DNA from: Azolla caroliniana
Lineage: Eukaryota; Plantae; Polypodiophyta
Length of the DNA stretch: 64,000 bases
Direction of reading: 5' to 3'
NCBI GenBank assembly: GCA_043228905.1
Contig: JBHGNT010000010.1
Coordinates: 5,084,001-5,148,000, forward strand
In this document: positions 26,967 to 64,000 of the stretch, one piece after another
Layout: every line of letters starts with the position of its first letter
Position numbering within the stretch: position 1 is the stretch's first letter
Position numbers and translations under genes: made by a program
The notes under the pieces: model-generated
Databases searched by the model: none
What the model saw: the letters and a program-made list of their open reading frames with translations, nothing else
Told to the model about the DNA's origin: nothing

Positions 26967-27206
26967 GGATACGCATATACGCTCAGCATACGGATACGCA
27001 AATACGCATGCTTACCATAGGGAACAGAACTCTGCAGCTGAACAGAGCAAACGAAGAAGCAATTGGGAAGGAAGGGAAGGGAAGGAAGGAGGCAGAGAGT
27101 ATGTATGTGAGGAAGAAGGGTTCTTCTGTCTCTTTCCTTCTTCCTGCTGTCGGAGGCGGAGGAGCAGTCCTCAGGGAAACCCTAATCGGAAAGGCGAGGC
27201 GCGGCT

Positions 27207-28373
27207 ATGGCTTCTGACGATGGGGAGCCTCAAGAGGCAACCGGAAGGGAAGAAGAAGAGCAGCAGCAGGAGGAGGAGGAGGAGGAGGAGGAGGAGGTGA
27301 CCCCACCTCCTCCTCCTCTTCCTCTGCTTCTTCTTCCGGCTCCTCCTCCTCCTCCTGCCTCTGCCTCTGCATCTGCTGCTGCTGCTGCTGCTGCTTCATC
27401 CTCTCTGCCGCCACGGATCCTCTCTCTCCATAAATTGCGTCAATCCGGCAAGAAACCCCCTGGCACATGGACCCCTGCAGAGACCTTTCATCTCATCAAC
27501 ACCTACCAGGAGAAGTGGTATGCCCTAAAACGAGGCCAGCTCCGCACCATCCACTGGGATGAGGTTGCAGAGAAGCTAGCTTCTCTCTGCCATGGCCTCC
27601 AGGATGTTACTCCCAAGTCCTCCATGCAGTGCCGCCACAAGCTCGAGAAGCTCCGCCGGCGGTACCGAGCGGAGAAGCAGCTCATCCTCCGGAAAGGACC
27701 TGCCTTCGCAGCCTCCGGATCTTGGCCCTTCTTCGTGCAGATGGATCATATGGAGAGAGGCCCCTCTGCCCCACCCTTGCAGGCGCAGCACTACCAATTC
27801 CATCCCGATCTGCGCCAGGGCGCAAGTCATAATGCTGTCGCTGTTGCACAGGAGAATAATGCAATGAATGAGTCTACCACAATTAGCTTGGACGAGGATT
27901 CGGACCAGCCCCCTCCACGAGTATTCGCGACCCGCAAGCGGCGGATGCATCATCATCAGAACCCTTATATCAAAGAGGACCATGAAGCAGATTCGACAAA
28001 GAAGGCGAATAAGAAGAAGCCTGTGAATGGTGGTTCTAGCAGCAGCAGTAAGAGAGAGAAGAGTAGAGAAGCCTCTCCTGTAAACCCTAGCCCTCCCCCT
28101 AACCCACCATGGTATGAGATGGGTCATTCTGATGTTCAGCAAGCCTCGGAGCTAGCATACCTTGTCCGTGCCTTGGGAGAGAATTTCCTCAGGATGGAAC
28201 AATTGAAGATCCAGATGCAGCGTGAGAATGAGCTGTTCCGAGCTGACATGGAGCTCCGACGGACCGAGATGGTTATCGACTCACAGAAACAAATTGCGGA
28301 ATTATTTTCCGAGGCCATGATAAACATGAAGAAGAAGACAAAGAAGACAAAGAAGGATCAACCAACCAGATGA
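27207..28373 (+). CDS. Trihelix (GT/SIP1-ASIL type) transcription factor, intronless, 388 aa
   Basis: Myb/SANT-like trihelix motif W.PAETFHLINTYQEKW..LKRGQLR..HWDEVA...KS..QCRHKLEKLRRRYRAEK, plus a C-terminal coiled coil (RALGENFLRMEQLKIQMQRE.E..R..MEL.R). Confidence 0.93.
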   Translation: MASDDGEPQEATGREEEEQQQEEEEEEEEEVTPPPPPLPLLLLPAPPPPPASASASAAAAAAASSSLPPRILSLHKLRQSGKKPPGTWTPAETFHLINTYQEKWYALKRGQLRTIHWDEVAEKLASLCHGLQDVTPKSSMQCRHKLEKLRRRYRAEKQLILRKGPAFAASGSWPFFVQMDHMERGPSAPPLQAQHYQFHPDLRQGASHNAVAVAQENNAMNESTTISLDEDSDQPPPRVFATRKRRMHHHQNPYIKEDHEADSTKKANKKKPVNGGSSSSSKREKSREASPVNPSPPPNPPWYEMGHSDVQQASELAYLVRALGENFLRMEQLKIQMQRENELFRADMELRRTEMVIDSQKQIAELFSEAMINMKKKTKKTKKDQPTR

Positions 28374-46757: not shown

Positions 46758-48227
46758 CTCGAATTGTCCATTGTTTGGTGTCTCTCTCAGATGCCCTTCG
46801 ATCTTATTTGTGAGCTTCCCAAATGGCCCTGTTGCAAAGGAATGTTTAAATCAGGGAGTACTTATGCAAAACCTAGTCGTGTTTTTTGCATTATCTTTCG
46901 TTCATATGATCCCAAAAACTCTATGTTGAAATTTGTCATCCTTTCCATTATGTGAATTGCATAAAATAGAGAATGAAACCTCTCTATACGTACACAAAAT
47001 CAAACCTAGAGAAAAACCATTAGGCGTATCCTCGTGAAGAGGTCTAACTCAAAGTGATATACTGGAAATATTTGCAGAAATAACAGGAGTCATAAATACT
47101 AGTTACCTGGTGATTTTCTAGAAAGAAAGATTATGAGAAACTTGAGAGAATTTCACAATCAGATAATTTTGTTTCTAAAGTTTCAGGTAGTTTATGAATA
47201 CCAGAAGTCCTAAATCTGCGATTGGCATGGTATGGTTGATTCTTTACAAGAACAATAACCTGGATATGGAATAACTTCTTCTGATGGATCCACGCAAGTC
47301 TAATTTTATTAATGCTCCAAAAAAAACAGTTGCTTTTCTTTTTACCCAGAATGCATCGGAGAAGGATTTGATATTCAGCTGAGAGATCACTAGAGGTTTT
47401 TCTTCTTAATCTAGCATGTATCCGAGATTGTTCAATGTTCCGATGAAACTGTACGTGAGAAATCTTCGACTTTGGATATGTAAATGTTTCAAACTTATTG
47501 AAGATTTTCAGAAAGTATAGATTAGTCTCCATGTTCTTCTCCAAGCCTTCTTCTTTAAAACCTCTTAATCAAAGTTCTTCTTCTTTCAATTTTTTCTCTT
47601 TCAAATGTGATGTATATCATTTTCCTTAAGAAACTGATAGTAAGAATCTTTCTCTTTCTGTTTTTCCTCTGTGTGTGTGTTCGACATTTTCTGTGCAGGC
47701 CAGAAAACAGCAGCTCGTCCGCCTCCATTACTCCAGATTCAACAGTGGTATCAGAGCGTGGACTTTGTGAGACTGTGTGTAGCAACAAGCATCTACATTT
47801 CTGCGTTTTCCCCCTCTGCGCATGCTATTTTTCAGGACCTCGACAGAGGTAATATCTACTACACGTTTCCGTCTTGAACAGTTTTTTTTTGTGTGCCTAT
47901 TTTTTGGGGAAAAATAGACCTTGGTGGAAGGTAGAAACAGAGAAGACTTGTTGTTTCAGAAGTGAGGATTTACACGCAAAAGAACCTGTGTTTGGTTTTT
48001 TTTTTTTTTTTCCTTTCGATGCTTGCTCACTTGATGTGAGTTTGTGACGTTGGAAGTTACGTCTTGGTTACAGACATTTTACCTTGGCTGATATAAGAAA
48101 GAGGTGTTGTCCTCAATCGAACACGTATACCTACCCTAGAACACGGCTTGAGACTAGGTAGGGAGTAGTGTCTCAACTATTGTTAGTTGTTTATATTTGG
48201 GATTGACCAAGTTTACCTAGCTTCCGA

Positions 48228-50110
48228 ATGGCTGCCTCTGAAATGTCCGAGGTTTCAAGTACCTCACGTGGTGGTTCGTTCAATTCCCATAGAAATCACC
48301 CTATGAGTGGAAAAGACCACCTTGAGATCCGTAAATTTGACGGATCCAACTTTGCCCTGTGGAAGAATCAGATGAGAGATGTCCTGATTCAAAGAAGGCA
48401 ATTAAGAGCTATAAGTGGTGAAGCCAAGAGACCCGAGGGCATGACCAAGGACGATTGGGAAGAGCTCGATCTCTTGGCAATGTCTACCATAAGACTGCAC
48501 CTGGCTGACAACGTGTATTTCACGGTCTTGGACTGTGACTCAGCTGAAAAGCTATGGACTAAACTATCCAGTACATACGAAAAAGAGACCGCATCAAACA
48601 AAGTTTATCTAATGAGAAAACTTTATGATCTTCGAATGAAGGACAATGACAGTGTCGCTTCTCATTTGAATGATTTTGATGCATTATGGTCACAATTACT
48701 GGCTCAGAAAATGATTTTTGATGATGAGTTGAAATGTGTATTTTTGTTATGCACTTTGCTTAGCTCATGGAACACTTTTTGCACCGCTATTAGTGCAAGT
48801 GCACCAAATGGGAAATTAGTCTATAATGACATATGTGGAGCTCTTTTGGGTGAAGAAATTCGTAGAAAATCTGTGATTGCATCACACAATGGAGATGCAT
48901 ATAATGTTTCTGATGTTGGTCCTCGCAAGAACCAACAACGTGGTAGGAGCCAAACAAGAAATAGTGGTGGAAATGATAGAGGTAGAAGCAAATCTAGGAA
49001 GAAAAATATGGAGTGCCATTACTGTCATAAAAAGGGTCACCTTAAGAAAGATTGTTATGCCCTTAAAAATAAGGAGAAAGATAGTGCTAGAGGGCATGGT
49101 AGACAATCTAGTGGTCCCTCTTCCTCGTTGGAAACGGAGGAAGTAAATGCAACATGTGGTGAGACGGACATCTTGGTCCTAGATGATGTTAGCACACATG
49201 CTGGGGTGAACACGGTCTTTTCTCCATCATATACGTGGTTGTTGGACTCCGGTGCATTGTTTCATGTGACTCCACATAGAGAGTGGTTCACATGTTATGA
49301 AGCCAAGTCGCTTGGGAAAGTTCGACTTGGAGACTCACATCAATGCGATGTGATTGGCATTGGAGATATCTCAATGCATTTTAGTGATGGTGCTCATTTG
49401 ACCATTAAAGATGTACGCCATGTTCCCCAACTAACTCGTAGTTTGATCTCCGTTGGTCAGCTTGATGACAATGGATATAAGGTGATGTTTGCTTCTCAAT
49501 CCTTTCGTATAACGAAAGGAAATATGATTGTTGCAAAAGGGAACAAAGTTGGTTCCCTCTACCCTCTATTTGTTCATCAAAAGGAACACTTGTTGGCTGT
49601 CACAGACCAGCCAATGACGAGCATTTGGCATGGTCGTTTGGGCCACATGTCAAGAAATGGCATGGAAATCCTATCTCGTTATGGCCACTTACCTAAGTTG
49701 TCATTCTCTGATTTTGCCTTATGTGAGCATTGTCAACATGGTAAGCAAACTAGAAGTGCACATAAGACTAGTGTAAACTCATCCACTAAACCATTGGATC
49801 TTGTCCACACGGATGTTTGTGGACCTATGCCCACAAGATCTTTGGATGGTGCCCTATATTTTGTTACTTTCATTGATGATGCCACTAGGAAAGTTTGGGC
49901 TTATCCAATTAAGGGAAAGGATGATGTATACCCCACTTTCAAAAAATGGCTTAGTTCGGTTGAGCTAGAAAAGGACATAAAGCTTAAGGCTTTACGTTCG
50001 GACAATGGAGGTGAGTATACCTCTCACGAATTTGTTGACTTTTGTAAGTCTAGAGGTATTCGGAGAGAGTTTACAGCTCCTTACACCCCTGTCCAAAATG
50101 GTGTGGCTGA
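48228..50110 (+). CDS. Copia polyprotein 5' part: gag (CCHC), protease, GAG-pre-integrase and integrase core up to the gypsy insertion
   Basis: KFDGSNF..WK, CHYCHKKGHLKKDC, WLLDSGA, WHGRLGH, HTDVCGP, LRSDNGGEY and QNGVA|E; the frame is broken at the TSD. Confidence 0.92.
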
Positions 50111-50744
50111 TGTCATGAAGACATACATCTTGGCTTATCATGACATTCATCTTGGCGAACCAGGAATCGAACCCATAACCTCTTGGTTTACATATTGTAC
50201 TTTAACCATTGTAATAACATATGTGAGATGTAATCATAATAATTATATGTTTAGTTATTACGAGATATTTAGAACATTCTAGATTATTCTAGAATGTTCT
50301 TGAATATTTCATGATTATATTTATTATTATTATTATTCATAAATATCTAAAATATTCTAGAACATTCTAGAATACTCCATAAGGGCCTATAAATAAGAGT
50401 CCATACACTCATCACAACTCATTCGGTTCAACACCAGTCTTTAGCCCTTAGCCTACTCCTTGTAATCTTCTTTCTCATAATATAATCTCATTCCCATTTC
50501 TTATCTCTCACTTATACTTTTCTCTCTCTCGCACTCTCTCCCTTTTTCACTCTCTTTTGCTATCACTATCGCTATCTCTACCGCTCTCGCCATCTCTATC
50601 GTTATCGTTATCTCTATCGCCATCGCTCTCTCTCTGCTTCCTACTCAAGAGTCACGACAGTTTGAACCGAATATTTCTTTTCCCTTTCTCCAATAACCCT
50701 AGCAAGCTTTCTTCTTTATCCTTCTTTCTTTTTCCCCCGCGGTT

Positions 50745-51872
50745 ATGGAGTCGGTCAGCAAGCAAGAGTATATGCGTGTCCTTTCGGAGCTCGATATGCT
50801 CACCACTAAGTTTGTGGCATTAGAGCAAGAAAATCAAAGGCTACTCGGGGATCTTCAACAAGTCAATACTGAGAAAGCTCATCAATATGAGGAGTTATCA
50901 CAACGGGTTCATCAACTTGAGGCTACTATATTAACATTACGAGAACAAGCGGCGGGGGTTCAAAACTCCCCAAGGGAACCAAAGATTAGCCTCCCTGCCA
51001 AGTTTGATGGTACCAGATCTCTCTTTCGAGGTTTCCTGAATCAAGTTCGTTTGGTGATTCAGTTACATCCCAATCGGTATCCAACTGATGCTGCCCGTGT
51101 GGGATTAATAGGAACCTTGCTAAGCGGTACAGCGTTAGCATGGTTTGCACCACTTCTTGAGAAGAAATCACCATTACTGGAGGATTTCGAGGCATTCGTT
51201 AAGGAGTTTCAAGCTAGTTTTGGAGATACGGATAGCACTAGGACTGCAATAAACAAGATTCGAAGACTCCGACAAGGAGATCGTCCCGCTTCAGCTTATG
51301 CCGCAGATTTCCGTCTCTTGGCATGCGACATCCCTTGGGATGAGGCAGCCTTAATGGATCAATTCCGTCAGGGTTTGCGTAACGATGTCAAAGATCTTCT
51401 TCTTACTTTCCATGAAGATCCAAAGTCTCTTACTGAAGCTATTAGCCGAGCTGTGCGATGTGATAATCGCCTATTTGAGCGACGTTCTGAACGTCAACAA
51501 ATGTTACGCCGCCAACCGGAACAGACATACGCTTCTATAGTCGCCACACCGCCACAAGGTTCTAGACCCGTTACGAGGGATGGTCCCACTCCGATGGAAA
51601 TAGAGTCGACACAACGTCGAGGGCCCTTATCAGATGCTGAGAAACAACGACGTCGGGCGCATCGCCTATGCCTCTACTGTGGTGGTCCAGGACATATAGC
51701 TGTGAATTGTCCACATAAACCCAGGCGTCAAGTTTACCAAGTAAGTGCACATGACAACCCTACATCAAGTTCTACTATCACTTCTAATAACTTAAGTACT
51801 AAGCCTAATAGCCCATGCCATGAGAATAGATTTGATGTCTTGAGCCAATTAGAGGATGTGTTAAACGAATAA
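50745..51872 (+). CDS. Gypsy gag (PEG10/sushi-like capsid with CCHC knuckle)
   Basis: P.KFDG.R..FRGFL, LL.G.A..W, L.QG..A..YA..F, GPTPMEI and LCLYCGGPGHIAVNCP. Confidence 0.93.
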   Translation: MESVSKQEYMRVLSELDMLTTKFVALEQENQRLLGDLQQVNTEKAHQYEELSQRVHQLEATILTLREQAAGVQNSPREPKISLPAKFDGTRSLFRGFLNQVRLVIQLHPNRYPTDAARVGLIGTLLSGTALAWFAPLLEKKSPLLEDFEAFVKEFQASFGDTDSTRTAINKIRRLRQGDRPASAYAADFRLLACDIPWDEAALMDQFRQGLRNDVKDLLLTFHEDPKSLTEAISRAVRCDNRLFERRSERQQMLRRQPEQTYASIVATPPQGSRPVTRDGPTPMEIESTQRRGPLSDAEKQRRRAHRLCLYCGGPGHIAVNCPHKPRRQVYQVSAHDNPTSSSTITSNNLSTKPNSPCHENRFDVLSQLEDVLNE

Positions 51873-63926: not shown

Positions 63927-64000
63927 ATCCTTGTGTCGGACCGCACAACTCGTTCGGAGCATGGATGGGAATTTCGAAAATGAGGCCCGGTTCCGTCGCT

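What the first reader, a model, noticed from the sequence alone, without database searches (positions are those of the whole stretch)
50388..50672. Self-priming (tRNA-independent) chromovirus: PBS complementary to its own transcript 5' end
Seen: just after the 5' LTR there is no TGG-type tRNA PBS. Instead TTGAACCGAAT (50662-50672) is the exact reverse complement of ATTCGGTTCAA (50421-50431), which lies 33 nt downstream of the LTR TATA box (TATAAATA, 50388), the expected transcription start. Known: fission-yeast Tf1 primes reverse transcription with the first 11 nt of its own mRNA, and this is proposed for the Tf1/sushi group; seed-plant chromoviruses mostly use tRNA-Met. Inference: this plant element retains the fungal-type 11-nt self-priming mechanism.
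Basis: partly seen in the sequence, partly recalled or inferred. Interest (0 to 1): 0.72.

Follow-up and report, generated by a model that had tools for sequence, protein, structure and literature searches.

The report
Self-priming plant chromovirus with fossil intermediates
A young jumping gene in a non-seed plant carries a primer site that matches its own end-repeat instead of a tRNA end, so it likely starts copying itself with a cut-off piece of its own RNA, as already predicted for this group; about a hundred scrambled relatives in the same genome appear to preserve that copying intermediate.

Summary
It lies in a young Ty3/gypsy chromovirus (50111-56045; identical 549-bp LTRs; 5-bp target duplication) inserted into a copia element. 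The 11 nt that start 2 nt after the 5' LTR pair perfectly with an LTR stretch 33 nt after the TATA box. Relatives keep a 10-12-bp duplex through changes on both sides, and its start stays 32-35 nt from TATA. No tRNA 3' end fits in an incomplete tRNA set. The RT groups with fungal and vertebrate elements, not seed-plant ones. Self-priming is therefore likely, but it is already predicted in print for 83% of plant Tcn1 elements (Neumann 2019), and this scan reported it before on another genome. What is added here: 100 genomic junctions in three families join U3 plus the predicted primer directly to antisense U5. Their antisense tracts often stop at, or just short of, the predicted cut (9 of 19 in a test fixed beforehand). 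These look like fossil strong-stop intermediates. The transcription start and the cleavage were not shown on RNA.

The parts
50106..50110 (+). left target-site duplication (GCTGA)
   Evidence: same 5 nt follow the 3' LTR
50111..50659 (+). 5' LTR, 549 bp, TG...CA
   Evidence: 0 mismatches to the 3' LTR
50388..50395 (+). TATA box (predicted)
   Evidence: TATA-like motif 32-35 nt before the complementary tract in all 13 rows with a 10-12-bp duplex
50421..50431 (+). predicted self-primer: first 11 nt of the RNA (start inferred)
   Evidence: pairing probability 0.78-1.0 with 50662-50672
50432..50432 (+). first base after the predicted RNase H cut; predicted end of minus strong-stop DNA
   Evidence: inferred from Tf1 (PMC7175516 passage) and from tract ends in rearranged copies
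50433..50439 (+). weak helix extension pairing with 50656-50661 (U5 end and spacer)
   Evidence: pair probabilities 0.46-0.57
50660..50661 (+). 2-nt spacer between LTR and PBS, probably trimmed by integrase (inferred)
   Evidence: a 2-nt spacer in all rows
50662..50672 (+). primer-binding site complementary to 50421-50431
50745..51872 (+). gag ORF (Ty3-type capsid, zinc knuckle)
51836..55504 (+). pol frame overlapping gag: protease motif, RT, RNase H, integrase, chromodomain; broken in this copy by an in-frame stop at 53204-53206
55274..55423 (+). chromodomain with Y, W, Y at the aromatic-cage positions
   Evidence: PF00385, E 1e-10; residues; cage positions from my own knowledge of HP1-type domains
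55482..55493 (+). polypurine tract before the 3' LTR
55497..56045 (+). 3' LTR, with the second copy of the 11-mer at 55807-55817
56046..56050 (+). right target-site duplication (GCTGA)

Best explanation
This is a Ty3/gypsy chromovirus, probably of the Tcn1 clade (Tf1/sushi group), whose PBS is complementary to its own LTR and which likely primes reverse transcription with the first 11 nt of its own RNA. Shown: the anatomy, the complementarity, its co-variation in relatives and its fixed distance from TATA. Inferred steps: (1) transcription starts at 50421; (2) nt 1-11 fold onto 50662-50672; (3) RNase H cuts after nt 11, as in Tf1; (4) RT extends the 11-mer over the 2-nt spacer, U5 and R back to nt 12, then transfers to the 3' R; (5) plus-strand synthesis from the PPT copies the primer and so regenerates the PBS, which explains why PBS and LTR change together. 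A by-product, also inferred: a strand ending in the primer copy has two possible partners, the true PBS and the 11-mer in R. Mis-annealing at R would give the observed copies in which U3 and the primer run straight into antisense U5.
For: Exact 11-bp complement; 13 of 5000 shuffles reach it. Perfect in 40 of 46 readable copies of the window's family group., 18 rows: 12 have a perfect 10-12-bp duplex, 1 has 12 bp with a G-U, and in all 13 the tract starts at an A 32-35 nt after TATA. Seven primer types pair 10 of 10 with their own PBS and 4-9 of 10 with the others. In a third own-genome family the PBS and LTR variants agree in 13 of 13 readable copies (3 G/C, 10 A/T). No tRNA 3' end pairs beyond 2 nt, whereas the host copia has an ordinary TGG-type PBS. 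RT tree with fungi and vertebrates. Junction copies: 40, 17 and 43 exact matches, reversed-pattern controls 0. 19 of 38 loci of the first set have a matching target duplication, and six have 310/310 identical U3 in both LTRs, so they probably arose before integration. Tract ends within -1..+6 nt of the predicted cut: 14 of 18 tracts that get that far (window chosen after seeing the data) and 9 of 19 in the third family with the window fixed beforehand (note; P about 2e-10 against the upstream rate of ending).
Against: No RNA 5' end or cleavage product was observed. The third duplex of the Tf1 'pretzel' (leader with LTR) has pairing probability 0.0, the second is weak, and the whole 330-nt fold is only z = -1.9, 5 of 100 shuffles. 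6 of 46 copies have one-sided mismatches. In one search, 2 of 18 rows fail (L089 and the 5' LTR of L093) and 3 distant rows give only 8-9 bp with no TATA found. Metagenome rows were picked by a junction motif that fixes the first four PBS bases, and in four of them the LTR copy comes from the other end of the contig. Two tracts end 2-4 nt inside the primer (L174, L251), 11 run on into U3 and one (L193) is ambiguous. Tract ends were read by eye and carry 1-5 nt of microhomology doubt. The tRNA set was incomplete (14 anticodon classes).
Confidence: 0.88

Rival explanations
1. A host tRNA or tRNA fragment is the primer. The tract resembles the tRNA T-arm motif, and the LTR match is a leftover, such as a captured primer copy.
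For: The T-arm of two tRNA-Val genes matches 10 of the 11 nt, and tRNA-Asn 9 nt including the spacer. The tRNA set examined is incomplete. The junction copies alone could also form with a tRNA primer, because any PBS copy can anneal to the LTR 11-mer.
Against: No 3'-end match beyond 2 nt. The primer types listed by Neumann 2019 are whole tRNAs, anticodon-stem halves and self-primers, not T-loop fragments. Relatives change the tract at many positions and the LTR follows each change. With an external primer and a start at 50421, tracts should end at nt 1; none ended at nt 1-6 except the ambiguous L193.
Confidence: 0.04
2. The RNA starts at about 50432, the 11-mer lies in U3, and an unknown outside primer is used. 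Strong-stop DNA would then also end at 50432.
For: It explains the pile-up of tract ends as well as cleavage does. The start site is unmeasured.
Against: It needs a start 44 nt after TATA. It does not explain why the 5' edge of the complement, not its 3' edge, stays 32-35 nt from TATA while the duplex varies from 10 to 12 bp. It offers no reason for co-variation and no primer.
Confidence: 0.04
3. The element self-primes, but the junction copies are not reverse-transcription fossils: they come from later DNA-level template switching or hairpin processing at the 11-bp inverted repeat, or from assembly errors.
For: Short inverted repeats can guide inversions (own knowledge). One assembly only; no reads were laid on these junctions. 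Long U3 palindromes may be trimmed, which could bias tract ends.
Against: Most copies are not simple inversions: the tract is followed by jumps to many internal sites on either strand. Very young copies with identical U3 and intact target duplications carry the junction. Two fold-back insertions end in U3 on both sides and have their own target duplication (L152; L242).
Confidence: 0.25

Closest known systems
Tcn1 clade of chromoviruses in mosses and club-mosses (REXdb; Neumann 2019, PMC6317226; Novikova 2010, PMC2864245)
   Same: Chromodomain with aromatic cage, 5-bp target duplication, overlapping gag and pol frames, 5.9 kb (clade range 5.5-9.4 kb), no tRNA PBS and an LTR complement of 10 nt or more within 5 nt of the LTR. 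That is the paper's own criterion, met by 83% of 1500 elements.
   Different: No difference in kind. The passages read give only the complementarity criterion; I saw no co-variation, TATA-distance or rearranged-copy evidence there. Additional file 1, with per-element data, could not be read and may list close relatives. Novikova 2010 found no sign of self-priming in SM-Tcn1.
Tf1/Tf2 of Schizosaccharomyces pombe (also Tj1, Tosmo1-3, Tcry1)
   Same: First 11 bases of the RNA complementary to the PBS, RNase H cut between bases 11 and 12 (PMC7175516 passage); same duplex length and place here.
   Different: Tf1 needs a three-duplex 'pretzel' (bioRxiv 2022.12.06.519325 passage). Here the leader-LTR duplex is not predicted and the U5-side helix is weak. 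Tf1 is shown by experiment; this element is not.
Seed-plant chromoviruses (Tekay, Reina, Galadriel, CRM)
   Same: Domain order and chromovirus body plan.
   Different: They mostly use tRNA-Met (48-90%). Their RTs are 44-56% identical to this one and fall across a 99/95 split.

Membership tests
Ty3/gypsy chromovirus | LTRs, target duplication, PPT, gag, and pol in the order PR-RT-RH-IN | tested here: met
   protease seen as a DSG motif only, no Pfam hit at 1e-3
Ty3/gypsy chromovirus | Chromodomain at the integrase C-terminus | tested here: met
   PF00385 E 1e-10
Tcn1 clade | [quoted passage not shown] | tested here: met
   in a 97/89 set with Cunninghamella, Powellomyces, frog and fish sequences; seed plants and Closterium split off at 99/95. 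48 rows, 191 columns, midpoint root, references chosen from hits
Tcn1 clade | Monophyly with named Tcn1, PpatensLTR or SM-Tcn1 references | not testable with these tools
   no tool returned these sequences under their names
Tcn1 clade | Chromodomain keeps the aromatic cage | tested here: met
   Y, W, Y at the expected places; positions from own knowledge; 95% of Tcn1 have it
Tcn1 clade | Host is a moss or club-moss | tested here: inconclusive
   best named hits of a host gene in the window are ferns at 49-50%, seed plants 35-44% over short parts; a non-seed land plant is likely, moss is a guess
Tf1-type self-priming | PBS complementary to own LTR, not to a tRNA 3' end | tested here: met
Tf1-type self-priming | The complementary tract is the 5' end of the transcript | tested here: inconclusive
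   constant 32-35 nt from TATA is indirect; no RNA ends were available
Tf1-type self-priming | Cut just after the primer | tested here: inconclusive
   indirect support from tract ends in rearranged copies; no direct test
Tf1-type self-priming | Three-duplex pretzel structure | tested here: not met
   central duplex strong, U5-side helix 0.46-0.57, leader-LTR duplex 0.0 (prediction only)

The most novel reading that the evidence does not exclude
The genome holds a fossil record of self-priming: about 100 integrated copies in three Tcn1-like families contain the primer joined to minus strong-stop sequence, and the places where these tracts stop map the RNase H cut (after nt 11 or 12, by family) without any RNA data. 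If so, self-priming carries a built-in cost, mis-annealing of the primer copy at R, visible in a few percent to about a fifth of junctions. The signature could test predicted self-priming in any genome, and these elements would work with little more than the central duplex.
Probability: 0.6. Interest if true: 0.55.

Novelty: new member of a known kind. Interest (0 to 1): 0.36.

Why it matters
In the papers read, self-priming is demonstrated for Tf1 and only predicted for plant Tcn1 elements, from complementarity alone. Co-variation, the fixed TATA distance and the stop points of rearranged copies are three further lines of support that need no bench work. The rearranged-copy signature would give a cheap genomic test for other predicted self-primers (for example TAR copia elements) and shows a route to fold-back LTR insertions. 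The headline claim by itself is ordinary for this clade.

Tried and rejected
RNA evidence: no RNA holder listed. Four small-share runs were laid; all are contigs and cannot show starts or ends. One contig begins at 50434, two bases inside the predicted cut, which I do not count. tRNA T-arm priming: 3 hairpin-pattern matches in the genome, one locus with tRNA genes; rejected as above. Full pretzel: not predicted. Simple inversion between the 11-bp repeats as the source of the junctions: fits only L193 fully and L033 approximately. Named references for the tree: searches gave no Tcn1, Tf1 or sushi by name; the only named LTR-retrotransposon structure hit was Ty3. Most of the 79 metagenome loci lacked a usable LTR-PBS junction; 14 of them went into (one of them twice). 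Primary Tf1 papers (Levin 1995, Lin and Levin 1997, Atwood-Moore 2006, Esnault and Levin 2015) were not held, so the Tf1 mechanism is cited from passages of secondary papers. Literature searches for the rearranged junctions found nothing relevant by listing, nor did a search of this scan's notes; most subscription papers are outside the library, so this is weak evidence of novelty.

Full report
Observation. All coordinates are right. The 5' LTR runs 50111-50659 and is identical to the 3' LTR at 55497-56045 (549 of 549); GCTGA flanks both ends. After the LTR come two bases and then 11 nt that are the exact reverse complement of 50421-50431, 33 nt after the start of the TATA box. 13 of 5000 shuffled LTRs gave so long a complement, and 0 of 4770 internal 21-mers did.

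What it is. A Ty3/gypsy element with gag (50745-51872) and an overlapping pol frame holding RT, RNase H, integrase and a chromodomain. This copy has an in-frame stop at 53204-53206. It sits inside the integrase region of a copia element, which has an ordinary TGG-type PBS. The family is young and numerous: 40 of 40 scored candidates (of 934) match the LTR-leader stretch at 98-100%, and the 150 scored RT matches (of 19,449 candidates) are 88-100% identical. A host gene's best named hits are ferns at about 50%, so the host is probably a non-seed land plant; moss is my guess.

Co-variation. In the window's family group the duplex is perfect in 40 of 46 readable copies; 6 have one-sided changes. 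A sister family in the same genome has two changes on both sides and a 12-bp duplex. A third family has two variants, and PBS and LTR agree in 13 of 13 readable copies of 15 examined (these share ancestry, so they may reflect one event). Adding metagenome contigs, one search lists 18 rows: 12 perfect duplexes of 10-12 bp, 1 with a G-U pair, 3 distant rows with 8-9 bp, and 2 failures. In the 13 good rows the duplex starts at an A 32-35 nt after TATA although its length varies, as expected if its 5' edge is the transcription start. Seven primer types pair 10 of 10 with their own PBS and 4-9 of 10 with each other's. Caveat: metagenome rows were chosen by a motif that fixes the first four PBS bases.

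tRNA test. Among 42 distinct tRNA genes (from 30 of 62 Rfam loci plus one pattern hit; 14 anticodon classes) no 3' end pairs for more than 2 nt. The best internal match is 10 of 11 nt in the T-arm of two tRNA-Val genes. The set is incomplete.

Structure and tree. The predicted 5' RNA forms the 11-bp duplex with probability 0.78-1.0, a weak extension to the U5 end, and no leader-LTR duplex, so it lacks one arm of the Tf1 pretzel as described in a passage of bioRxiv 2022.12.06.519325. The RT is 74% identical to a Cunninghamella sequence, 64-68% to frog and chytrid sequences and 44-56% to seed-plant ones; the tree separates it from seed plants at 99/95. No named Tcn1 or Tf1 sequence was available, so the clade name is inferred from these features.

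Rearranged copies. Five of 40 diverged loci showed U3 and the 11-mer running straight into the spacer complement and antisense U5. Exact-pattern searches found 40 such junctions for the window's family group against 179 normal ones, 17 for the sister family against 184 (a count that also takes in most of the 17) and 43 for the third against 1070. These are exact matches, not true rates. All 40 and all 17, and 40 of the 43, were fetched. After the antisense tract the copies jump to varied internal sites on either strand. 19 of 38 loci of the first set keep a target duplication and six have fully identical U3 in both LTRs. After removing duplicates (37 and 16 events), 18 tracts get within 6 nt of the predicted cut: 14 end between -1 and +6, one ends 2-4 nt inside the primer, two run on into U3 and one is ambiguous (ends read by eye; P 4e-15 against the upstream rate, window chosen after the fact). 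I fixed that window in a note before reading the third family: of 39 independent events 19 get that far, 9 end in the window, 1 at -2, none in the rest of the primer or the next 30 nt, and 9 run on into U3 (P 2e-10).

Mechanism. Shown: anatomy, complementarity, co-variation, junction structures and their stop points. Inferred: start at 50421, folding onto the PBS, RNase H cut after nt 11, strong-stop DNA ending at nt 12, and copying of the primer during plus-strand synthesis. A strand that copies a primer-bearing minus strand ends in a PBS copy, which can anneal at the R 11-mer and copy U3; that yields the junctions, and in the extreme the fold-back insertions L152 and L242. The reverse route, a nascent plus strand switching onto the PBS of a cut RNA, gives the same product, and the data do not separate them. 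The junction alone does not prove self-priming; its stop points near nt 12 rather than nt 1 are the informative part. A start at nt 12 with an outside primer would give the same stops but leaves the co-variation unexplained.

Known work. Neumann 2019 (PMC6317226; passages and Additional file 5 read, files 1 and 3 unreadable) predicts self-priming for 83% of 1500 Tcn1 elements from mosses and club-mosses and uses it as an argument for horizontal transfer. Novikova 2010 (PMC2864245, passages) defines the clade and saw no priming signal in SM-Tcn1. Novikov 2012 (PMC3350952, passages) added tRNA-Met PBSs for other club-moss clades. Tf1's mechanism is taken from passages in PMC7175516 and PMC4600332; the primary papers were not held. 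The title of Atwood-Moore 2006, seen only in a reference list, says the Tf1 self-primer is not removed, which fits the junction model. This scan reported a self-priming moss chromovirus before on another genome (e1-7364707). Searches for the rearranged junctions found nothing by listing.

Verdict. Observation confirmed, interpretation supported, novelty low: a new member of a known, predicted kind. The fossil-intermediate evidence raises the interest to 0.36; if confirmed in raw reads and native cDNA it would deserve about 0.55.

Noticed in passing
window 58900-64000: Tandem array of about 365-390-bp GC-rich units carrying 12 tRNA-Asp(GTC) genes on the minus strand; it runs to the window's end.
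   Followed up: partly
window 47647-58641: The host Ty1/copia element has a canonical TGG-type PBS at 47746, but its two ends share only 99 bp (100% identical), so the 5' LTR looks truncated or replaced upstream.
   Followed up: partly
L242 (G000:C4, near 19.61 Mb) and L152 (G000:C3, near 10.42 Mb): Fold-back insertions of about 0.65-0.7 kb with U3 at both ends and their own 5-bp target duplication, as expected if snapped-back plus-strand strong-stop DNA were integrated.
   Followed up: partly
L164 (G000:C10, near 1.94 Mb): The rearranged junction is present in both LTRs of one element, with the antisense tract ending at nt 12, which suggests the rearranged form went through another round of copying.
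   Followed up: no
window 50265-50394: U3 holds imperfect inverted repeats built on TTCTAGAA motifs just upstream of the TATA box; they resemble heat-shock elements (recalled, not tested).
   Followed up: no
L108-L146 (metagenome contigs, 41-45% identity): A distant group with a different PBS also shows an 8-9-bp, often bulged complement to its own LTR after a 2-nt spacer.
   Followed up: partly
G000:C16, near 12.89 Mb (L184): Two divergent tRNA-Val genes share a T-arm that matches 10 of the 11 primer bases.
   Followed up: yes
window 27186-28373: Host gene with a Myb/SANT-like domain; best named hits are fern proteins at about 50%.
   Followed up: partly
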